64,000 nucleotides of DNA from an uncultured Bacillales bacterium (GTDB lineage Bacteria; Bacillota_I; Bacilli_A; RF39; UBA660), in the NCBI GenBank assembly GCA_947648915.1, contig CANSPQ010000002.1, positions 50-64,049 on the forward strand. The letters run 5' to 3'. How positions within the stretch are numbered: the stretch's first letter is position 1; each line of letters opens with the position of its first letter. This document shows, one piece after another, positions 1,116-9,313 of the stretch. The notes under the pieces were generated by a model. The model saw only the letters and a list, made by a program, of their open reading frames with translations, was not told the DNA's origin and ran no database searches. The position numbers and the translations under genes are program-made.

Positions 1116-1421
1116 TTATTTTTTCTTTGGTTTTAACTCCTTACAAGTATCTACAATCATATTTCTTAATCGCTCAGAATCTTCTAAATCTTCTACCCAA
1201 TACATCAATTTCGCACCTTTATAAGGAAGTGCCTCTTTCAAATTGTATTTTTGATTGCTGGTTGTCTCTTTGATTAAAAATCGTTCTTCTTCATAAATTC
1301 CACCAAAATAAATATTCTGGTAATAAAATAGATAACCACCCATCATAGGACGATATGTGATAGAATCTAAACATTCTAATTTTTCTAATATATAATCTTT
1401 GTATTCTTTTGCAGTTGCCAT
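1116..1421 (-). CDS. TfoX/Sxy N-terminal domain protein
   Basis: ~100 aa with MGGYLFYY...GG core typical of the TfoX_N domain. RBS AAAAGGAG before the ATG. Confidence 0.5.
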   Translation of the reverse strand: MATAKEYKDYILEKLECLDSITYRPMMGGYLFYYQNIYFGGIYEEERFLIKETTSNQKYNLKEALPYKGAKLMYWVEDLEDSERLRNMIVDTCKELKPKKK

Positions 1422-1470
1422 AGATAACTCCTTTTATTTTGCAGTTGCCATAGATAACTCCTTTTATTTT
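1411..1470. repeat. perfect 2 x 30-bp tandem duplication spanning RBS and start codon of the TfoX_N gene
   Basis: gcagttgccatagataactccttttatttt occurs at 1411-1440 and again at 1441-1470. The second copy creates an upstream mini-ORF MATAK-stop. Confidence 0.9.
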
Positions 1471-2142: not shown

Positions 2143-3411
2143 TTATCTTATCTTTCCTTTTTCTTCTGATAATATCATTCCCAACAACTCTGATTCTGTC
2201 ACTTGGATTACCTTTCCACAACATGGTTTGAAATTTGGATTTCCATAAACAATCCAAATTACATTTTCATTTTTTAAATCTTCTTTGGGCATATTTCCTG
2301 GACCAGGGATTCCATCGGTAAATATAATTTTATTGATTTCTTTTTTTCTTGTGAAAGAACGAACGGCTAAATCCCAGTCTTCTGTCCATGCATACTTATG
2401 TGATTCTTCTGGAATCACAAAATGATCAATATCATCATTTGACTTTATTTCTACCATTTTATAATATTTTTCATTAAAACACCCTACTTTTAATTTGGAA
2501 TGATGTAATATCGGTTTGATTATCCTTAAAAAAGATTTTACTAAATTTAAACTAACTGACCCAGAAACATCAATTAAAACCTCTGTTTCCGCTTCTTCTT
2601 CTAACTCGTCTTCTTCTAATCTATATGCATAATTATTCTCAGCAATGGAACGTCGATTACTCCAAATAATCTCGTCTTTATTGACTTCTCTTCTTAAAAG
2701 AAGTAGCCAATCAATCGCATTATTTTCTTCCCCTATTGTGCCTAATTCATTTTGAATCTTATTTTTTTTCCATTCCTTTAATACTTGTTCTTTTTTCTGC
2801 TTCAAATCTTTTTTGGCTTTTGCAATGCGTTCCTCTCTATTTTCTCTAAATTCTTGTTTTTCATCAATTTTTGTATCTGGCTTTTGAACCTGATCTTCAC
2901 CTGTTTCCATTTTTTCAAAAGCTTCTTTCCAAAGACTATGGTCATCCCTCCAAGTGGATTTTGTATAATCCCCATCCTCATTTAACAATTTTTCATATAA
3001 TTGTTCTGCTGTATAGGATAACGCATCTGGATAAGTAAAATAATCTTCTTCTATCTGAAATCCATCTCTTACCAAATTGGCATTGATGATTGCATCGGTA
3101 GCTTCATTCCATACGTCTAAATCTTTCTTTTTGCCATCCTTTTTTAAACGGTACATATGAAGAAATTGCATATGCATAAGCTCATGCGCCAAGAGAAATA
3201 AACGTCCCTCAAGTTCTAAGCTTACAAAATAATCAGGGTCAATCAAAATCTTTTTTCCATCTGTTGCCCCTGTATGATACTTTAAGTGACGATGATATTC
3301 AATTGGTGTAGCTGCAAGTAAACTTGCAAAACGAGGATAGCGAATCATTAGAATATTTTTTGCTTCATTCATTAAATCCATAGACAACTCTCCTAAAATG
3401 CTACAACACAC
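2143..3411 (-). CDS. VWA-like domain protein with N-terminal putative metallopeptidase domain (DUF2201_N/DUF2201 type), partner of AAA_5 ATPase
   Basis: HExxH motif (LAHELMHMQF) in the N-terminal half. The C-terminal half is VWA-like (LIDVSGS). Last gene of the three-gene operon with the ATPase. Confidence 0.6.
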   Translation of the reverse strand: MCCSILGELSMDLMNEAKNILMIRYPRFASLLAATPIEYHRHLKYHTGATDGKKILIDPDYFVSLELEGRLFLLAHELMHMQFLHMYRLKKDGKKKDLDVWNEATDAIINANLVRDGFQIEEDYFTYPDALSYTAEQLYEKLLNEDGDYTKSTWRDDHSLWKEAFEKMETGEDQVQKPDTKIDEKQEFRENREERIAKAKKDLKQKKEQVLKEWKKNKIQNELGTIGEENNAIDWLLLLRREVNKDEIIWSNRRSIAENNYAYRLEEDELEEEAETEVLIDVSGSVSLNLVKSFLRIIKPILHHSKLKVGCFNEKYYKMVEIKSNDDIDHFVIPEESHKYAWTEDWDLAVRSFTRKKEINKIIFTDGIPGPGNMPKEDLKNENVIWIVYGNPNFKPCCGKVIQVTESELLGMILSEEKGKIR

Positions 3412-3773
3412 AATTGATAAAGATTGGGTGCAATATTTTTTAAAGATTCTTTTGATACTACTGTAAAAACAATAATGACATTGGAAGGAATTGAATACCC
3501 CATAAATTCTCTATCTTTGATGAGTCCAATATATTTTTCTTGTTGCGCCATAGTTAATGTATCTATTCTGCGAATGACAAAATACGTTGTTTTTCCATTG
3601 CTAGAAAGTTGTTCCAATTTGGATTTGAAAATGGGATTTCCATAACGAAACAAATAGGTATCTTCTATACTAGCATCCATATATGCAGTTTGTCCTAAGT
3701 TTTGATACATACAATCCAGTATAATAGCACCAGTCGCACTCCCTCGTTGTAACTCTACTAATTCCTGATTCAT
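3393..3773 (-). CDS. hypothetical small protein (operon member between ATPase and VWA protein)
   Basis: 126-aa ORF. Translationally coupled: ATGA overlap with the upstream ATPase and an overlap with the downstream VWA gene. Confidence 0.4.
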   Translation of the reverse strand: MNQELVELQRGSATGAIILDCMYQNLGQTAYMDASIEDTYLFRYGNPIFKSKLEQLSSNGKTTYFVIRRIDTLTMAQQEKYIGLIKDREFMGYSIPSNVIIVFTVVSKESLKNIAPNLYQLCVVAF

Positions 3774-5530
3774 CTACTTTTTCCAACTCCCTCTATTTGT
3801 CCCTTTTTCAGTTCTAATTGTTGTAATTCACTCATTTTCAACATCCGCATCTCATCATTTCCAACCCATAGTAAATCATATAATTCACGATATTCAGGAT
3901 CACAATATTGCTGAACAAATTCTCTACAAGTACCAACTTGATGCTCATCAGCTAACAACAATGCCACCATAGAAGCATATCGCTCATTAGTGTTTCTTGG
4001 TAAATCTGCTTGGGTATAGGTTTTATTAACGACTTGTTCTATGGTAAGTGTTGGAATATTATAATAATTCAAAAATTCTCTTGCCCAAGATTCACGCAAT
4101 TTGGTTGCGATAGACATTTGTAGTAAATGTTCTACATCTTTGCCCACATATTTGCCTTCCACTAAATTTTTTTCAAAGGCACATAGTGTATGAGAAATGG
4201 ATGTCCACCCTCTTGGATCATTTGTTCTACCACGACAACCATTACGATCTTTATCCCTTTCCCCTACCTCTGGTTCTTCATAAAAGTATCCAATCGAGGA
4301 AATATCTTCTCTTCTTTGATTTTCCATATATTTTGAAACAATATATCCAATCACAGAAGGATGTAACTGATTCGGAATTGCATATTCATAAATCCATTCT
4401 GAAACACGTGGTTCCATATCTAATATATGATCAAATCTCTTTTCTAGTGGTTCTGCTAATTCCTCGGCAACACTAGAATATTTTTGCGGATTTCCAGTTG
4501 CCACAATCACTGTATTTTCTGGCAATTTTAATCCACTTCCCGTTTCTACAATCCGATTCAAAACGAGGGTATAGACAAGTGATTGTACCACTGGTTTTAC
4601 ATTCAAAAGTTCATCTAATAATATTACAATTTTTTCATTACTTGTCTTTGATCTTTCATATATGGTATCCGCAAGGTCATATAAGCTTTGAATATTACTT
4701 GCAACCATTTTCTTTTCTTCTTCCGTCGCACAATTTAAAATCGCTTGCTTGGCAAAATTAGGCGGAATATTTTGACCTGTTTGAAAGTTACTAGAACCAA
4801 CCACCTTCTCAGGAAGCATATTGTTGGTCAATTTGAGATAGATTAAATTTGGATATAATTTACGAATACGCTCTGTCTTTCCAATTCCAGATGGCCCTCT
4901 TAATAGTACGGATTCCCCTGCTTCAATCCAATTTTGAATCATTTCGGTATATGTCATTTTTCTTCTCTCAGATGCGATTGTGGTATCTGGATTGAGATTT
5001 TGAAGTCTTGTTTTACGAATACTGGTATCGGTATCAGGTATCAGGTAATCCACTTTATTTGTCTGTATTTCTTTTGCAAAACAGTTATCCATATATTTTT
5101 TGATATCTGTCTTTGCAAAATCTCCCTTATAATTTCTAATCTGATTGAATTGCACACCTGCAAACAAAATGGTTTTAGGAAGCACAATGTCATTCTTTTT
5201 ATCTACGAACCAACGAACTTTCTCTACTTTCACCCAATATGGTTTCCCGATTTTTATTTTTGCTCCTGTTGAAAGCACCTTTCCCGCCCCATTTTTATCA
5301 CCCAAAAAGCGAATATATCTTTCTTGCATATACTCGTACTCAATAAATTCACGTGCCTGAAAAGGCATGTCATAATCATCATAAGCAACAGAATCTGTTG
5401 TATATTTGTTTCCTGTTTCCTTCATACCAATTTGGTATGTATTTTCCAATTGTCTTGCAAAATTATCTTCCACTGCAGTTTGTGGAAATTCTCCAAAATC
5501 AACTTCAAGAAGTCCACTTGCCCCTCTCAC
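3770..5530 (-). CDS. AAA+ ATPase, AAA_5 (MoxR/McrB-like) family. In frame with the upstream DGR target ORF.
   Basis: Walker A LLRGPSGIGKT. Walker B/sensor ILLDELLNVKP (DEINRAP-like). ATGNPQ arginine-finger region. The assigned start is a GTG with no convincing RBS. Confidence 0.7.
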   Translation of the reverse strand: MRGASGLLEVDFGEFPQTAVEDNFARQLENTYQIGMKETGNKYTTDSVAYDDYDMPFQAREFIEYEYMQERYIRFLGDKNGAGKVLSTGAKIKIGKPYWVKVEKVRWFVDKKNDIVLPKTILFAGVQFNQIRNYKGDFAKTDIKKYMDNCFAKEIQTNKVDYLIPDTDTSIRKTRLQNLNPDTTIASERRKMTYTEMIQNWIEAGESVLLRGPSGIGKTERIRKLYPNLIYLKLTNNMLPEKVVGSSNFQTGQNIPPNFAKQAILNCATEEEKKMVASNIQSLYDLADTIYERSKTSNEKIVILLDELLNVKPVVQSLVYTLVLNRIVETGSGLKLPENTVIVATGNPQKYSSVAEELAEPLEKRFDHILDMEPRVSEWIYEYAIPNQLHPSVIGYIVSKYMENQRREDISSIGYFYEEPEVGERDKDRNGCRGRTNDPRGWTSISHTLCAFEKNLVEGKYVGKDVEHLLQMSIATKLRESWAREFLNYYNIPTLTIEQVVNKTYTQADLPRNTNERYASMVALLLADEHQVGTCREFVQQYCDPEYRELYDLLWVGNDEMRMLKMSELQQLELKKGQIEGVGKSR

Positions 5531-5571
5531 TTCGTTCGAGGAGATGGAAGAGATAGAAGAGTATGGTAAAG

Positions 5572-5645
5572 CTGGACGGGCTCCTACATCCCGTTTCCTA
5601 ACATCATCTTAGTCCTCATAACCGTCATCATTAACGACGCGCGCG
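5572..5645 (-). repeat. DGR variable repeat (VR)
   Basis: 74 bp, 65/74 identical to the TR at 7173-7246. All 9 mismatches are at TR adenines on the minus (RT) strand. The GC-rich 3' end GGAGCCCGTCCAG is identical in both copies (IMH-like). Confidence 0.85.
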
Positions 5646-5854
5646 TCATTATCTCCATCTGAAGTTTTTGTCCACCACCAACCAGTACGGTCTTTTAATG
5701 TACTTCCTTCACTTGTATATGTACTATCTGCTACATAACCACCTAATAAAATAGCAAAATCCGAAATTGCACATTTGGTTCCATACAATTTAAATATATC
5801 TAATTGTTTATCACCAAATATTTGTTCTGTTTCTAAAAAAGTAAAATCTAACAT
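5609..5854 (-). CDS. DGR target protein (81 aa) with C-terminal VR. Its stop codon lies inside the VR.
   Basis: RBS GGTGGTGA 5 nt before the ATG. The C-terminal codons AAT GAT GAC GGT TAT GAG GAC correspond to TR AAT AAA AAC GGT AAT AAG AAC. C-terminal signature GWWWTKT...ARVVN. Confidence 0.7.
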   Translation of the reverse strand: MLDFTFLETEQIFGDKQLDIFKLYGTKCAISDFAILLGGYVADSTYTSEGSTLKDRTGWWWTKTSDGDNDARVVNDDGYED

Positions 5855-5916: not shown

Positions 5917-6972
5917 TTACAGTTTATTTATATCTTTCAACAAAATTGCCTGTCTAAGAAAACACTCGCTTGTATTTTTTATATGATTGTAAAAAGCATT
6001 TTTTCGAATCAATACATAAGTTTCATCGACAATTCCCTTTTGATATAATTTATTCATTGTTTTTAAATGTTTTTTCATTCTCTGTTTCGAAGAATATCGC
6101 AATTTCATAATCAATTTCCCACTAGGTGTAACAATATGTCGATATCCTAAAAAATCAATTCCATTTTTGACCATACCAATTTGTGTTTTTTGATTGAGTT
6201 CTAATTTTAACTCATTATGGCATATGCTTTCTATTTCATTCTTGCAATATTTTAAAAACTTTTTGTCCTCATGAATTAAAATCATATCATCCATATACCT
6301 TACATAATACTTTACTTGCAGCACCTCTTTGATGTATCGGTCTACTACATTTAAATAATAAAGGGCAAACCACTGACTCGATTGATTTCCAAGAGGCAAA
6401 CCCTTATTGGCAGCATTTGGTTGCTCCTGAATTAACTTTCGAATCATCCACATTTCATCTTCTGAAAAGTCAATCTTTTCAAGTAAGGTGATTAAAATTT
6501 GATGATCAATACTTGGAAAGTATTTATGAATATCACATTTCAAAAAATAAAATTGATTATTTCTTACTTTCCTATATGTCTCTCCTAAAAATTGATGTAG
6601 CCGATTAATTGCAAACGTAGTACCTTTTCCTTTTCGGCAAGCACAATTATCATAGATCAATTTCTTTTCTATTTTTGGTTTTAAACAAACATCGCAAAAG
6701 CAGCGAATCACCACTCTGTCTTTAAACGGCAAAGCTTCTATTAAACGCTCTTTTGGTTCATAAATATAAAATATTTTATAAGAACCCAATTGATATTTAC
6801 GCTTATAAATATCTTGCATTAACTCATGTATATAAACAGCCAAATTGGTCTCAAACCGAATCACTTCTCCTTTGTGTTGTTTGGATTTTCGGCAATTTTG
6901 ATATGCTTCATATAAGTTTTCAAATGTAAAAATTTCTTTTAAATTCATAAATACTCCCCAAAAAAGAAACAC
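5917..6972 (-). CDS. DGR reverse transcriptase
   Basis: RT motifs, including YxDD (YVRYMDDMIL). Motif 4 reads GLPLGNQSSQWFALYYLN, the DGR-specific [IL]GxxxSQ form rather than the group II/retron SP form. 351 aa, the usual DGR RT size. Confidence 0.85.
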   Translation of the reverse strand: MFLFWGVFMNLKEIFTFENLYEAYQNCRKSKQHKGEVIRFETNLAVYIHELMQDIYKRKYQLGSYKIFYIYEPKERLIEALPFKDRVVIRCFCDVCLKPKIEKKLIYDNCACRKGKGTTFAINRLHQFLGETYRKVRNNQFYFLKCDIHKYFPSIDHQILITLLEKIDFSEDEMWMIRKLIQEQPNAANKGLPLGNQSSQWFALYYLNVVDRYIKEVLQVKYYVRYMDDMILIHEDKKFLKYCKNEIESICHNELKLELNQKTQIGMVKNGIDFLGYRHIVTPSGKLIMKLRYSSKQRMKKHLKTMNKLYQKGIVDETYVLIRKNAFYNHIKNTSECFLRQAILLKDINKL

Positions 6973-7172
6973 CCCATATAACGCCCAAAGAATGAATTCA
7001 TTCGTTGTTTGTGTGAGTGTTTATATATTTTTTCCATCGCATCTAAGACTTCTCTTTTAGCAATTAGAAAAGAAGAAAATTCCTTCACCTTACAATACAG
7101 GTTTATTTTACCAAAAATAAACTTCTCTCATCTGTTTTCTAGATTTTTCTTAAAATCTCTTCAAAAGTGAAT

Positions 7173-7246
7173 CTGGACGGGCTCCTACATCCCGTTTTCT
7201 AACATTATTTTAGTTCTTATTACCGTTTTTATTAACGACGCGCGCG
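7173..7246 (-). repeat. DGR template repeat (TR)
   Basis: The adenine-rich copy on the RT strand: ...AAT AAA AAC GGT AAT AAG AAC TAA AAT AAT GTT AGA AAA CGG... Located between the avd-like ORF and the RT. Confidence 0.85.
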
Positions 7247-7325: not shown

Positions 7326-7910
7326 CTAACCTTTCTTACGCCATCTTTCATCATCACTCTTTTTCCAAGCAGCGATTAAATTAATGGCTTCTGCTAATTG
7401 AATGGATATTTGTTTATACTGTTTTTTCAAAATACAATTACAACTCTCCGCAATCATCGCAACATATCCCAATAATTTTAGCTTTACAATAGTCGCTTTT
7501 TGAAATTGTACTCTTATCATCTTATTTTCTTGAGAGTCCATTCTCGTCAAATTAGCTTGCAACAACAATTCCAATGTATCCAAACAATAGTTCTGCATTC
7601 TATTTACAAATACACCTCTAAACTTTTTAGGAGATTTTTCTGTCACTGCGATTACGTAAGCACCCAACTTCTTTACAACCGTAATTACTATTAAATCATT
7701 TGCATTAAAGGGAATCTTAGAAATTCTTTCCAATTCCTGATCTTCTATTTCTAATTTTTCCCTTAAAGCATTTATATTTATTTTTTGTTCATTTACACTC
7801 GCAAGTGCTTTTTTGATTGCAACTGCATCATCTATACTATTTACACTTGTTTCATATTGTTCTACTTGCTTTGGTATTTTTAAACTACCATTTCTATTTA
7901 CCTGCAGCAC
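7326..7910 (-). CDS. Avd-like accessory variability determinant (four-helix-bundle protein), probably with an N-terminal extension or a later non-ATG start
   Basis: The C-terminal ~120 aa align loosely with the Bordetella phage bAvd pattern (Y..A...SPKKFRGVF..., LDTLELLLQAN). Basic, helical. Immediately upstream of the TR. Confidence 0.5.
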   Translation of the reverse strand: MLQVNRNGSLKIPKQVEQYETSVNSIDDAVAIKKALASVNEQKININALREKLEIEDQELERISKIPFNANDLIVITVVKKLGAYVIAVTEKSPKKFRGVFVNRMQNYCLDTLELLLQANLTRMDSQENKMIRVQFQKATIVKLKLLGYVAMIAESCNCILKKQYKQISIQLAEAINLIAAWKKSDDERWRKKG

Positions 7911-8023
7911 TACATCACAACTCCTAGTTGGTATTATAGCACAAGTTATTATTTTTTTAAAATACCTAGATTGTTATAATTTAAAGAATAAATTTTAACA
8001 AAATATACAAAAACAATATTTAT

Positions 8024-8048
8024 TAAAAAAAAATCACATTTCTGCGAC
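8024..8048 (-). terminator. intrinsic terminator hairpin (GTCGCAGAAATGTGAT + U9) of the TCGCAGAAATGCGA family
   Basis: Stem-loop with G-U wobbles only on the minus-strand RNA, followed by T9. Confidence 0.4.
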
Positions 8049-8113
8049 AATTTTGTTACAGATTTTTAAAATCTGTAAGGTTATTTTTTTCTTTGTAAAA
8101 TAAGGTAAAATCA

Positions 8114-8142
8114 TTTACTAATAGTCCAATAAATAGTATGAT
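8114..8142 (+). promoter_or_regulatory. sigma-A-like promoter for the small peptide A mRNA
   Basis: TTTACT-17 bp-TATGAT. Confidence 0.4.
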
Positions 8143-8217
8143 GAATATAGGAATACAAGACTTTGTTGGGTTTTTGCCGAACTTCCATTCAATTGGATAG
8201 AGGGGAGGCTTGAGATT

Positions 8218-8310
8218 ATGAAAAAAAGAGTTTTTATTTTGAAAATTCTAAATAACATTATTCTCATTTTGTTCCTTCTACTTTTATTAGTAGCCGAGAT
8301 AAAGAAATAA
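8218..8310 (+). CDS. 30-aa hydrophobic peptide (type I toxin-like) MKKRVFILKILNNIILILFLLLLLVAEIKK
   Basis: Strong RBS GAGGGGAGG 7 nt upstream. Single TM-like core with a charged C-tail. A paralogous module lies at 22653. Confidence 0.45.
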   Translation: MKKRVFILKILNNIILILFLLLLLVAEIKK

Positions 8311-8411
8311 CACCCTAATTCAGTGAATTAAGGTGCAAACCAATTTGGTAAGCACTCAACTTTGCAAGAAGTCAAGTGTTCCATTTTTATTGTATGGAAT
8401 TTCTTCCATCT
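8300..8411 (-). ncRNA. putative cis-antisense sRNA (type I antitoxin-like), module A
   Basis: Transcribed from TTTACA-17-TATAAT. Begins with the hairpin ATGGAAGAAATTCCAT. Ends at the hairpin 8311-8335 plus UUAUUUCUUUAU, which overlaps the last codons of the peptide ORF. Confidence 0.45.
8311..8335 (-). terminator. 12-bp hairpin (CACCTTAATTCA/TGAATTAGGGTG) plus U-run. Terminator of the antisense sRNA overlapping the peptide ORF stop.
   Basis: Seen in sequence. The U-run is present on the minus strand only. Confidence 0.5.
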
Positions 8412-8417
8412 ACATAC

Positions 8418-8446
8418 ATTATAATATATTATTTTGACTTTGTAAA
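8418..8446 (-). promoter_or_regulatory. near-consensus sigma-A promoter (TTTACA-17-TATAAT) on the minus strand
   Basis: Plus-strand tgtaaa at 8441-8446 and attata at 8418-8423. A conserved paralog lies at 22835-22863. Confidence 0.5.
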
Positions 8447-8492
8447 CTAGTTTGCCAAATTTTTCTTATAAAATAACATGCTAAATTGGAGC

Positions 8493-8515
8493 AAAAGAAA
8501 ATCGCATTTCTGCGA
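8493..8515 (-). terminator. intrinsic terminator TCGCAGAAATGCGA + U-rich, downstream of the 8516-9148 gene
   Basis: 6-bp stem, GAAA loop, then UUUUCUUUUG. Confidence 0.5.
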
Positions 8516-9148
8516 CTAATTTAGTACCTTTTGTTTTTGATTATCTTTTATTGCACCTGCTATTGTACAATAGCAATTTTTATTACCATTATAGAAAATT
8601 CTAAATAATTGTGATATCATTTGTGGTGAAGAAATACGAGTCGTATGAATCATACCATTTTCAATTGTTTGCTTTTCCGTTATTGTAAAATTTTCAAAAT
8701 CTTGAAGTAAAAATATAAGTTCTGCTAAATAGTTGTCTATCATATTAGAACATATTTTATTAAGTTCTTTCTCTAGATATATACTAGCCTCATTTATAAA
8801 TGTCATTTGAGAAAATTCTTCATCACAACTAGAACAATCCATAACAGGTATTAAAACACTTATTCTTCCTGCTAATCTTATTAATTCTTCACGTTCCAAA
8901 CCAAACAGTTTTTTACACGCATAATTGTTCATTGGTATTTGTTTGGTTTTATAATATTTGGAAAAAATTAGGATAATATTATTTCTTAATTCTGTAATAA
9001 TCTCTGTTTCATTTTTACCAATGACACTTAATGGTTCAATTCCTGGTTGAAATAAACACATATTAACATTTAATTCTGAATTGAGTATTTCTAGTATATT
9101 TTTCAAAATTTTAGTCTGACCTATAACTTGTTCACTTATTTCTGCCAT
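8516..9148 (-). CDS. hypothetical protein
   Basis: 210-aa ORF with no recognisable motifs. Confidence 0.4.
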   Translation of the reverse strand: MAEISEQVIGQTKILKNILEILNSELNVNMCLFQPGIEPLSVIGKNETEIITELRNNIILIFSKYYKTKQIPMNNYACKKLFGLEREELIRLAGRISVLIPVMDCSSCDEEFSQMTFINEASIYLEKELNKICSNMIDNYLAELIFLLQDFENFTITEKQTIENGMIHTTRISSPQMISQLFRIFYNGNKNCYCTIAGAIKDNQKQKVLN

Positions 9149-9313
9149 AATTATAAATCCTCCTTTGCAAATATTAGTTGCTATTCTATATGAAAAATAC
9201 TAAATTGTCAAATTGATTCAATGTTAAATTAAATATTAAGTAAATAATCACCAAAAACTTTATGATGTATAGCAACCTCCCCAAGTGAATAGCAATTATA
9301 TTAACAATCATTA

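What the first reader, a model, noticed from the sequence alone, without database searches (positions are those of the whole stretch)
2143..5854. DGR target is the N-terminus of an AAA_5 (MoxR/McrB-like) ATPase operon with a VWA plus HExxH metallopeptidase-like partner
Most described DGR targets are C-terminal CLec/Ig-like ligand-binding domains of phage tail or surface proteins. Here the VR domain sits in front of a three-gene module: an AAA_5 ATPase with a DEINRAP-like Walker B region, a 126-aa coupling protein, and a DUF2201-type VWA/metallopeptidase. That resembles NTP-dependent conflict or sensor systems in which a hypervariable recognition domain is coupled to an NTPase effector switch. 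The variable tail (GWWWTKT...ARVVN..G......VRKRD in the readthrough frame) resembles the C-terminal signature of DUF1566/FGE-CLec-type VRs (....VR.VR).
Basis: inference. Interest (0 to 1): 0.8.

Follow-up and report, generated by a model that had tools for sequence, protein, structure and literature searches.

The report
Hypermutated sensor fused to an ATPase
A gut bacterium uses a reverse-transcriptase "diversity generator" to rewrite the tip of a cytoplasmic ATPase that works with a protease-like partner. The likely role is a variable intracellular sensor, and in this genome the generator has itself written a stop codon that switches the gene off.

Summary
On the minus strand lie bAvd (7910-7326), a template repeat TR (7246-7167), a DGR reverse transcriptase (6972-5917), the target (5854-3770), a 126-aa protein and a DUF2201 metallopeptidase/VWA protein.

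Ten of the 11 TR/VR differences sit at TR adenines; the other is a C-to-T in the boundary motif.

The 81-aa ORF and the 586-aa AAA_5 ORF are one gene. They share a frame and are split only by a TAA inside the VR, and that TAA is templated by a TAA in the TR.

More than 100 homologues are uninterrupted proteins of about 700 aa. A conspecific allele (P0276) reads TTC at that codon.

The variable domain is a DUF6273-type, C-type-lectin-like module. It sits at the N-terminus and has no signal peptide.

The order Avd-TR-RT-target-P126-DUF2201 recurs in 75 species-level gut and rumen Firmicutes genomes. An RT lies in cis in 33 of 56 informative loci.

Stop-prone TRs are common in the family (11 of 26). 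Broken targets are almost confined to loci with a cis DGR (10/29 against 1/26).

I read this as a new architectural variant of DGR-diversified, NTPase-coupled sensors. A defence role is inferred, not shown.

The parts
7326..7910 (-). bAvd-like DGR accessory gene (194 aa)
   Evidence: Pfam bAvd E 2.2e-5. NCBIfam DivGenRetAVD E 1.3e-6. Both hits are below the curated cut-offs. The gene is conserved directly upstream of the TR and RT in related loci.
7933..7961 (-). Promoter-like site upstream of avd; a possible operon promoter
   Evidence: TTTAAA-17-TATAAT with a TG extension. This is a consensus match only, and the scan found no more sites than expected by chance.
7167..7246 (-). Template repeat (TR), non-coding, between avd and RT. 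Read in the VR frame it contains a TAA at 7210-7212.
   Evidence: 80-nt direct repeat of the VR. Ten of the 11 differences are at TR adenines. The TR is identical in the conspecific locus L012.
5917..6972 (-). DGR reverse transcriptase (351 aa; the likely start is the ATG at 6948)
   Evidence: RVT_1 E 1.7e-17. PADLOC RT E 6e-35. YMDD and LGNQSSQ motifs are visible in the translation.
3770..5854 (-). DGR target gene: one 694-codon reading frame (VR domain, middle domain, AAA_5 ATPase, helical C-terminal region), interrupted by one in-frame TAA
   Evidence: translation. More than 100 uninterrupted homologues of 690-740 aa cover 98-100% of the frame. The conspecific 694-aa allele P0276 is intact. 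A Shine-Dalgarno-like AGGTGGTGA lies upstream of the ATG at 5854, and none lies upstream of the GTG at 5530.
5531..5854 (-). N-terminal variable-region domain (codons 1-108), DUF6273-type and lectin-like
5566..5645 (-). Variable repeat (VR), encoding ARVV-xxxGxxxxxxVxxRxxGARPAL
   Evidence: This block is hypervariable across homologues while its flanks are conserved. Three conspecific alleles differ from the TR almost exclusively at TR adenine positions; L012 also carries three non-adenine differences.
5609..5611 (-). In-frame TAA stop inside the VR, copied from the TR's TAA. It ends the 81-aa ORF.
   Evidence: codon alignment. The same codon reads TAG in L012 and L002, TAA in L034 and TTC (Phe) in L079/P0276.
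4955..5530 (-). Middle beta-rich domain (codons 109-300) that packs against the VR domain
   Evidence: The AF2 model of residues 1-285 forms one compact unit, pTM 0.87. The 1-272 module occurs alone and fused to other C-termini. It has no Pfam hit.
4433..4909 (-). AAA_5 (MoxR/dynein-type) ATPase core
   Evidence: Pfam AAA_5 covers residues 316-474 at 26.9 bits, cut-off 22, and hits 50 of 50 homologues. Walker A GPSGIGKT, Walker B LLDE and NP...LEKRF motifs are invariant in alignment A2.
3393..3773 (-). Conserved 126-aa partner (P126). Its start overlaps the ATPase stop by 4 nt.
   Evidence: Present in 53 of 63 informative loci. It matches no family in any library. A weak profile match to the ATPase segment just after Walker B (hhalign probability 27%, E 6.7e-4).
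2143..3411 (-). DUF2201 protein: an N-terminal HExxH metallopeptidase-like domain plus a C-terminal VWA-like domain with a MIDAS motif
   Evidence: DUF2201_N E 7.6e-22. The VWA-like DUF2201 profile is matched over positions 3-122 of 123, E 0.014. HExxH, DxSGS and TDG are conserved in orthologues. It lies downstream in 59 of 63 loci.

Best explanation
This is a chromosomal diversity-generating retroelement (DGR). Its single target is the N-terminal, DUF6273-type lectin-like domain of a cytoplasmic protein of about 694 aa, and the rest of that protein is a MoxR-like AAA_5 ATPase.

The shown steps are these. The RT and Avd copy the TR, with errors at adenines, into the VR. That rewrites about 13 codons on the surface of the N-terminal domain.

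The ATPase gene is followed by two genes whose starts overlap or abut the preceding stop. One is a small protein (P126) that may be a degenerate AAA core. The other is a DUF2201 protein with an intact HExxH metallopeptidase motif and a VWA/MIDAS domain.

The rest is inferred. The hypervariable domain would bind an unpredictable intracellular ligand, most plausibly a protein of an invading phage or other mobile element. Binding would be transmitted through the AAA+ ring to the VWA-metallopeptidase partner. The partner would then cleave either the captured ligand or a cellular substrate.

The family has an additional property. In many members the TR carries a TAA or TGA in the VR reading frame, so retrohoming writes OFF alleles (stop) as well as ON alleles (Phe, Ser, Cys, Trp and so on). 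This window carries an OFF allele, which is why an 81-aa ORF and a 586-aa ORF are seen instead of one gene.
For: DGR anatomy:
- TR/VR repeat with 10 of 11 differences at TR adenines.
- RT with YMDD and GNQSSQ, plus a bAvd-like gene.
- A conserved VR/TR-distinguishing 3' boundary, VR ...CCAGCTTTA against TR ...CCAGATTCA, in nearly all related loci.

One gene rather than two:
- Same reading frame.
- More than 100 uninterrupted homologues of about 700 aa with a hypervariable block exactly at the VR.
- A Shine-Dalgarno-like sequence only before the ATG at 5854.

Activity and ON/OFF states:
- Conspecific alleles (window, L012, L079/P0276, P0278) differ from the TR almost only at TR adenines. L079 reads TTC at the TAA codon and encodes the full 694 aa.

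Selection:
- dN/dS between the window and L002 is 0.20 (VR domain before the VR), 0.30 (middle domain) and 0.12 (ATPase), although all four genome-assembly members of that clade carry the stop.

Family-level linkage:
- The conserved order Avd-TR-RT-target-P126-DUF2201 occurs in 75 species-level genomes.
- An RT lies in cis in 33 of 56 informative loci, and DUF2201 lies downstream in 59 of 63.
- One TR serves two tandem targets in L007, L008, L009 and L011.

Domain identity:
- DUF6273 is above threshold in the L047 orthologue.
- DUF6273 is described as CLec-like and as a DGR target in PMC10743442 and in bioRxiv 10.1101/2024.10.15.618418.

Cytoplasmic location:
- No hydrophobic 19-mer exceeds a Kyte-Doolittle mean of 1.65 in any of the five proteins.

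Precedent for the sensor logic:
- DGR-diversified CLec domains are linked to MoxR-vWA and STAND NTPases (PMC7159879, PMC10907252).
Against: - No experiment or defence-island statistic supports a defence role. PADLOC gives only a weak generic AAA hit (DolB, E 1e-7) and nothing for P126 or DUF2201.
- Neighbouring genes are mixed. Housekeeping genes flank L001, a restriction-modification system flanks L002, and a PemK toxin and recombinases flank L080.
- The ATPase cannot be placed specifically in MoxR. AAA_5 is only just above threshold, no PDB relative is found by sequence, and Foldseek gives only generic AAA+ matches on a model with moderate confidence in the ATPase part.
- The VWA assignment is sub-threshold in the window protein.
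- In this window the target is OFF, so this locus may currently do nothing.
- About 40% of informative loci lack an RT within 8 kb.
Confidence: 0.55

Rival explanations
1. The anatomy is the same but the function is not defence. The hypervariable domain would be a substrate adaptor that lets a MoxR-VWA chaperone/protease machine engage changing cellular or environmental proteins, for example for assembly, quality control or signalling. This would resemble RavA-ViaA, CbbQ-CbbO or NorQ-NorD, which remodel specific client proteins.
For: Characterised MoxR-VWA pairs are chaperone-like remodelers (background summarised in PMC7159879). Several loci sit among housekeeping genes. No PADLOC system matches.
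Against: A housekeeping client would not need about 13 randomised codons. Every DGR target with a known or well-argued role mediates binding to a changing partner. OFF alleles are tolerated at high frequency, so the system is dispensable for growth.
Confidence: 0.2
2. In this genome the locus is simply a dead or decaying DGR target. The TAA would be an accidental TR mutation that has inactivated the gene, and the downstream ORFs would be remnants.
For: The window, L012, L002, L003 and L034 all carry a stop at the same VR codon, and L034 also has a frameshift. There is no ribosome-binding site before the 586-aa ORF. Wu et al. [quoted passage not shown]
Against: All segments are under purifying selection across about 30% protein divergence (dN/dS 0.12-0.30). 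All catalytic motifs are intact. The VR is still being rewritten within the species, and a full-length conspecific allele exists. In-frame TAA or TGA occurs in the TRs of several separate lineages, some of which have sense codons in the VR.
Confidence: 0.15
3. The module is a remnant of a phage receptor-binding or tail-assembly cassette. DUF6273 tentaclin-like proteins are phage DGR targets, and MoxR-VWA pairs take part in an archaeal virus tail assembly.
For: Phage tentaclins carry an N-terminal DUF6273 VR domain (PMC10743442). A MoxR-vWA role in archaeal phage-tail assembly is cited in PMC7159879.
Against: There are no phage genes in the window flanks or in related loci. The IMG/VR scan found no relatives and BFVD gave no significant match. 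The locus is syntenic in the chromosome between the window and L002 (Rhomboid, DUF3048, HD, then the system, then TfoX).
Confidence: 0.03

Closest known systems
DGR-associated MoxR-vWA (VMAP) ternary conflict systems of cyanobacteria and gammaproteobacteria (Kaur et al. 2020, PMC7159879; Dore et al. 2024, PMC10907252)
   Same: A cellular DGR diversifies a lectin-fold domain that is genetically coupled to a MoxR-type AAA+ ATPase, a vWA/MIDAS protein and a peptidase. The targets are predicted to be cytoplasmic, and a sensor-plus-NTPase-switch logic has been proposed.
   Different: In those systems the FGE-type CLec domain sits at the C-terminus of the vWA protein. Kaur et al. note a strict syntax in which all other domains lie N-terminal to it. 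The peptidase is a trypsin or caspase on a separate VMAP protein. Here the variable domain is DUF6273-type, N-terminal and fused to the ATPase itself. The peptidase is a zincin-like HExxH domain fused to the VWA. A 126-aa protein takes the third position. No VMAP or bpMoxR Pfam family is hit. The hosts are gut and rumen Firmicutes (Bacilli and Clostridia MAGs) rather than filamentous or aggregating bacteria.
Tentaclins and other phage DUF6273 DGR targets (Baykov et al. 2023, PMC10743442; bioRxiv 10.1101/2024.10.15.618418)
   Same: A DUF6273, CLec-like variable domain that sits at the N-terminus of the target, with the VR forming a surface beta-hairpin. N-terminal VR placement is rare among DGRs.
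   Different: Tentaclins are phage structural or receptor-binding proteins with Ig-like domains downstream. Here the downstream part is an AAA+ ATPase in a chromosomal operon, and no viral relatives were found.
Generic MoxR-VWA remodeler pairs (RavA-ViaA, CbbQ-CbbO, NorQ-NorD, midasin)
   Same: An AAA_5/MoxR-like ATPase encoded next to a VWA protein with a MIDAS motif, with overlapping genes that suggest a stoichiometric complex.
   Different: None of those has a hypermutated recognition domain on the ATPase or a metallopeptidase on the VWA protein. Specific MoxR-clade membership could not be shown here.
CPR DGR targets with Midasin/P-loop NTPase motifs (class UVR4 of Wu et al. 2018, PMC5758913) and STAND-CLec DGR targets
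   Same: A DGR target polypeptide that itself contains an NTPase domain.
   Different: Those belong to different phyla, have unclassified or C-terminal VRs, and have no reported DUF2201 partner.

Membership tests
Diversity-generating retroelement (DGR) | TR/VR repeat pair whose differences fall at TR adenines | tested here: met
   80-nt pair. Ten of the 11 differences are at TR adenines, and one C-to-T lies in the 3' boundary motif. The same pattern holds in about 29 related pairs.
Diversity-generating retroelement (DGR) | DGR-type reverse transcriptase adjacent to the TR | tested here: met
   RVT_1 E 1.7e-17 with YMDD and the LGNQSSQ motif. PADLOC RT E 6e-35. No DGR-specific RT profile was available, so assignment to the DGR clade rests on context.
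Diversity-generating retroelement (DGR) | Accessory variability determinant (Avd) | tested here: inconclusive
   bAvd E 2.2e-5 and DivGenRetAVD E 1.3e-6. Both are below the curated cut-offs, but the gene is in the canonical position and is conserved in related loci.
Diversity-generating retroelement (DGR) | Evidence of ongoing mutagenic retrohoming | tested here: met
   Conspecific VR alleles (window, L012, L079, P0278) share the same TR and differ from it almost only at its adenine positions. L012 also has three non-adenine differences.
DUF6273 (PF19789), CLec-like DGR variable domain | Pfam match above the gathering score | tested here: inconclusive
   The window protein gives no hit at E<=0.01. 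Sixteen of 50 close homologues hit below threshold, best E 1.8e-4. The orthologous domain in L047 scores 38.6 bits against a cut-off of 23.5. Membership is therefore met for the family and only by homology for this copy.
DUF6273 (PF19789), CLec-like DGR variable domain | C-type-lectin-like fold with the VR on the surface | tested here: inconclusive
MoxR-VWA chaperone pair | AAA+ ATPase of the helix-2-insert/MoxR clade | tested here: inconclusive
   AAA_5 is above threshold (26.9 against 22) and hits 50 of 50 homologues. AAA_3 (MoxR proper) is sub-threshold. An NP...L..RF motif is present. There is no PDB relative by sequence, and Foldseek finds only generic AAA+ matches.
MoxR-VWA chaperone pair | Adjacent VWA protein with a MIDAS motif | tested here: met
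   DxSGS and TDG motifs are conserved. The VWA-like DUF2201 profile is matched over 3-122 of 123 positions, although at E 0.014. The protein lies downstream in 59 of 63 loci.
VMAP ternary conflict system (Kaur et al. 2020) | VMAP protein, and a CLec/effector domain fused C-terminally to the vWA component | tested here: not met
   No VMAP or bpMoxR Pfam family was hit by the window's target, P126 or DUF2201 proteins. One distant homologue, P0129, gave a bpMoxR hit at E 0.064, far below its cut-off. The lectin-like domain is on the ATPase and is N-terminal. The locus works like these systems but is not a member.
Known anti-phage defence systems (PADLOC-DB v2) | Match to a system-specific protein model | tested here: not met
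   Only DolB at E 1e-7 over 74 residues of the AAA core. Nothing matched P126 or DUF2201.

The most novel reading that the evidence does not exclude
The in-frame TAA or TGA kept in the TR is not damage but a built-in switch. Each retrohoming event would both randomise the binding surface and toss a coin between an OFF allele (stop) and an ON allele. At that codon the ON outcomes are the residues reachable from TNN: Phe, Leu, Ser, Tyr, Cys and Trp. A population would then hold a mostly silent reservoir of sensor variants, limiting the cost or autoimmunity of a cytoplasmic hypervariable protease-coupled receptor. DGRs would thereby double as phase-variation devices.
Probability: 0.25. Interest if true: 0.8.

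Novelty: new variant of a known kind. Interest (0 to 1): 0.62.

Why it matters
DGR-diversified intracellular sensors have so far been argued for mainly in multicellular cyanobacteria and purple sulfur bacteria. In those, a C-terminal FGE-type lectin domain sits on the vWA protein.

This family shows the same logic built differently. The variable domain is N-terminal, DUF6273-type, and fused directly to the ATPase, with a zincin-VWA partner. It is widespread in uncultured gut and rumen Firmicutes: 75 species-level genomes and more than 1,400 proteins.

It offers a compact three-gene effector module in which the sensor-NTPase-protease hypothesis could be tested.

It also contradicts the textbook rule that DGR templates avoid nonsense codons (PMC10907252, PMC12875486). 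It supplies natural ON and OFF alleles of one species for testing whether hypermutation also serves as phase variation.

Tried and rejected
- PDB sequence searches found nothing meaningful with the N-terminal profile, the full-length profile or the DUF2201 protein.
- Foldseek of the full-length model against the PDB gave only generic AAA+ and STAND hits, and the ATPase part of that model has modest confidence. It could not separate MoxR from other clades.
- BFVD and an IMG/VR scan found no viral relatives. I therefore rejected a phage-tail origin.
- The afdb50 library was unavailable.
- I considered that the N-terminal module is a circular permutation of DUF6273, with the VR-bearing C-terminal part first and the 'GEYPQ...W.V' part second. 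That motif resemblance comes from memory. The middle domain gave no DUF6273 hit even at E<=1-10, so the idea is unsupported.
- I looked for a hairpin just downstream of the VR, as in phage BPP-1. None was found.
- NCBIfam and PADLOC gave no family for P126 or DUF2201.
- A test for an excess of stops over a neutral model was not significant. With adenine retention of 0.5-0.69, a stop-free VR is expected in about 0.3-0.4 of events. One ON allele among about 8 sampled clade alleles is compatible with neutrality (my own binomial estimate, P about 0.17).
- The promoter and terminator scan found no more promoter-like sites than in shuffled sequence, and only slightly more terminator-like sites (6 against a mean of 2.6, sd 1.9).

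Full report
**Anatomy.** Every gene in the first 12 kb of the window lies on the minus strand. Reading 5' to 3' on that strand, the order is:
- a 194-aa bAvd-like gene, 7910-7326 (Pfam bAvd E 2.2e-5; NCBIfam DGR Avd E 1.3e-6);
- an 80-nt template repeat (TR), 7246-7167;
- a 351-aa reverse transcriptase, 6972-5917 (RVT_1 E 1.7e-17, with YMDD and GNQSSQ);
- an 81-aa ORF, 5854-5609;
- a 586-aa ORF, 5530-3770 (AAA_5, 26.9 bits against a cut-off of 22);
- a 126-aa ORF, 3773-3393, with no family hit;
- a 422-aa protein, 3411-2143 (DUF2201_N E 7.6e-22; HELMH; DVSGS...TDG; C-terminus matches the VWA-like DUF2201 profile end to end at E 0.014).

The variable repeat (VR, 5645-5566) differs from the TR at 11 positions. 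Ten are TR adenines. The eleventh is a C-to-T in the 3' boundary motif, where VR reads ...CCAGCTTTA and TR reads ...CCAGATTCA. Nearly all related loci show that same distinction.

**One gene, not two.** The 81-aa ORF and the 586-aa ORF are in the same frame. They are separated by a single TAA at 5609-5611 and 26 sense codons.
- A search with the joined 694-aa sequence found 1,474 proteins. More than 100 of the best are uninterrupted proteins of 690-740 aa covering 98-100% of the query at 57-66% identity.
- Their N-termini are conserved except for one block, DARVV-xxxGxxxxxxVxxRxGGARPAL, which coincides with the VR.
- A Shine-Dalgarno-like AGGTGGTGA precedes the ATG at 5854. Nothing comparable precedes the GTG at 5530.

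The DGR target is thus the N-terminal domain of the ATPase protein itself.

**The stop codon is templated.** Read in the VR frame, the TR has TAA at exactly the codon where the VR has TAA.
- The near-identical genome fragment L012 (about 95% identity, same TR) has a different VR, with TAG at that codon.
- The related species L002/L003 (70% identity in the ATPase; syntenic as Rhomboid, DUF3048, HD, the system, then TfoX) has TAA in its TR and a stop in two different VR alleles.
- L034 has TAA plus a frameshift.
- The 90% cluster of the window's ATPase also contains P0276, a 694-aa uninterrupted conspecific protein. Its VR reads TTC (Phe) at that codon and differs from the TR elsewhere only at adenines.

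The element is therefore active in this species. The same TR writes both OFF and ON alleles, and the window holds an OFF allele.

**Not a decaying pseudogene.** Between the window and L002, dN/dS is 0.20 for the 69 codons before the VR, 0.30 for the middle domain and 0.12 for the ATPase. Between the window and L012 the values are 0.12, 0.22 and 0.04. Walker A, Walker B, the NP...RF motif, HExxH and the MIDAS residues are all intact and conserved.

**Family-wide picture.** A scan of one genome per species returned 75 loci. All are from uncultured gut or rumen MAGs labelled Bacilli, Clostridia, 'Tenericutes' or Christensenella.
- The order Avd-TR-RT-[VR domain, middle domain, AAA]-P126-DUF2201 is conserved.
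- DUF2201 follows in 59 of 63 informative loci, and P126 in 53 of 63.
- An RT lies in cis in 33 of the 56 loci with at least 4 kb of upstream sequence.
- About 29 TR/VR pairs show adenine-biased mismatches. In L007, L008, L009 and L011 one TR serves two tandem paralogous targets.
- In the more distant Christensenella-type loci the target is again a single ORF (768 aa in L047) with an N-terminal VR carrying the canonical WYWLRS...GCARPAL signature.

**Stop-prone templates.** Of 26 ungapped TR/VR pairs, 11 TRs carry an in-frame TAA or TGA at one of a few recurrent codons, and 7 VRs carry a stop.
- Of 55 gene copies examined, 10 of 29 with a cis RT are broken, against 1 of 26 without (Fisher P = 0.006).
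- Counting only breaks inside the VR gives 9 of 29 against 0 of 26 (P = 0.002).
- The breaks are nonsense codons at VR codons 74-87, or 1-nt indels within the VR.
- The literature states that DGR codon usage (AAC, AAT) avoids nonsense (PMC10907252, PMC12875486).
- With the per-adenine retention reported for BPP-1 (about 0.69, PMC12875486), my calculation at a retention of 0.65 predicts that only about a third of retrohoming events on the window's TR give a stop-free VR.
- The one ON allele among about eight sampled clade alleles is compatible with that neutral expectation. I cannot claim that stops are selected for. I can say only that they are tolerated, that they recur, and that the gene stays under purifying selection.

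**The variable domain.**
- Pfam gives nothing for the window's N-terminus at E<=0.01.
- Sixteen of 50 homologues give sub-threshold DUF6273 hits, with residues 56-95 matching profile positions 127-168 of 172. Five give Fib_succ_major hits.
- The L047 orthologue matches DUF6273 above threshold (E 1.2e-9, 38.6 bits).
- An AlphaFold model of residues 1-285 of P0003 is confident (pLDDT 86, pTM 0.87). It shows the VR domain and the following beta-rich middle domain as one compact unit.
- DUF6273 has been described as a CLec-like DGR target, including the rare N-terminal placement in phage tentaclins (PMC10743442; bioRxiv 10.1101/2024.10.15.618418).

The lectin-like assignment is reasonable but rests on weak structural scores. 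The domain is DUF6273-type, not DUF1566/FGE.

The 1-272 module also occurs alone and fused to other C-termini, and the ATPase occurs with other N-termini. No viral relatives were found.

**The effector module.**
- The ATPase is AAA_5 in all 50 homologues, but it is too divergent to place more precisely.
- P126 has no family. A weak profile-profile match (probability 27%, E 6.7e-4) aligns its residues 74-118 with the ATPase segment just after Walker B (KPAVQSLVYTLVLNR...LKLPxNTVVVAT). It may therefore be a degenerate AAA core. This is a lead, not a result.
- The P126 start overlaps the ATPase stop by 4 nt, and the annotated DUF2201 ORF start overlaps the P126 end. Both overlaps suggest translational coupling.
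- None of the five proteins has a membrane-like hydrophobic segment, so the system is predicted to be cytoplasmic.

**How it most likely works.**

Shown:
- the DGR rewrites the surface of the N-terminal domain of a cytoplasmic AAA+ protein;
- this protein is conserved together with P126 and a zincin-VWA protein;
- ON and OFF alleles exist.

Inferred, by analogy with MoxR-vWA pairs and with the published DGR-MoxR-vWA and STAND systems (PMC7159879, PMC10907252):
- the variable domain captures an unpredictable cytoplasmic ligand, most plausibly from a phage or another invader;
- the AAA+ ring transduces that binding to the VWA-metallopeptidase, whose MIDAS site binds a peptide segment;
- proteolysis of the ligand or of a cellular substrate follows.

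I give the whole statement a confidence of 0.55. The anatomy alone I put at about 0.95, and the defence-sensor function at about 0.45.

**Comparison and novelty.** The locus works like the DGR-linked MoxR-vWA ternary systems, but it fails their membership tests.
- There is no VMAP protein.
- The lectin-like domain is not C-terminal on the vWA protein.
- The lectin family is different.
- The peptidase is different and is fused to the VWA.
- The hosts are different.

Full-text searches for DGR together with MoxR/vWA, AAA+ ATPase, DUF2201 or DUF6273 found no description of this architecture. I classify it as a new variant of a known kind. The nonsense-templating TR is the most unusual feature.

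Noticed in passing
TRs of L001/L037, L006, L043, L064 (codon 2 of the variable block); window, L012, L002, L034, L025, L075 (codon 8); L036: In-frame TAA or TGA codons recur in the TRs of this DGR family at a few fixed codon positions. At 'codon 8' other members have TGG, TAC or AAC, which suggests a G-to-A drift (TGG, then TGA, then TAA) that widens diversity at the price of stops.
   Followed up: partly
L034 VR 8210-8290; L071 VR 8209-8293; L008 first target copy (VR from about 2704): L034 and L071 have 1-nt indels inside the VR relative to the TR that frameshift the target. In the first L008 copy the frame also breaks just after the truncated TR/VR match. DGR retrohoming may therefore also produce indel alleles here.
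   Followed up: partly
L007, L008, L009, L011, L013, L014, L022, L026, L033, L038: Two or three tandem paralogous [VR domain, middle domain, AAA] genes sit in one locus, with P126 between copies and a single DUF2201 at the end. Where a TR is present, both VRs match it.
   Followed up: partly
P0002 (962 aa): One homologue carries two tandem copies of the whole N-terminal VR-plus-middle module before the ATPase.
   Followed up: no
window 5531-5854 compared with L002: Synonymous divergence is about three times lower in the VR domain (dS 0.36) than in the rest of the gene (dS 1.0-1.3). This could reflect nucleotide-level constraint, such as homology needed for retrohoming, or recent exchange of the cassette.
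   Followed up: no
window 5634-5645 and 7235-7246 (minus strand GACGCGCGCGTC): A GC-only stretch in a genome of about 30% GC marks the 5' edge of both VR and TR. In the VR the sequence GACGCGCGCGTC is a perfect palindrome. In the TR only CGCGCGCGTC is shared, because the two bases upstream differ.
   Followed up: no
L079, L080 and L081 contig ends: Several metagenomic contigs carrying homologues stop within 20-1,100 nt upstream of the target start. This is what VR/TR repeats or VR heterogeneity would do to an assembly.
   Followed up: no
L002 3153-5303 compared with window 7998-9300: At the syntenic position just upstream of avd, the related species carries a restriction-modification system (DNA methylase, Eco47II-type endonuclease) and an ASCH gene. 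The window has an unrelated 210-aa ORF there, so this is a variable island next to the DGR.
   Followed up: no
window 1404-1463: A near-perfect tandem duplication of 30 nt (97%) covers the ribosome-binding site and the first codons of the TfoX_N-like gene.
   Followed up: no
window 8025-8059 and 8493-8527: A 35-nt direct repeat (83%). The copy at 8493-8527 overlaps the 3' end of the 210-aa ORF and a terminator-like hairpin (8500-8517); the other lies about 460 nt downstream.
   Followed up: no
target residues about 528-555 in alignment A2 (window codons about 520-550): A nearly invariant insert, YFYEEPEVGE...NGC.GRTNDPRGW, lies in the C-terminal half of the ATPase. It is a candidate docking site for the VWA/MIDAS partner.
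   Followed up: no
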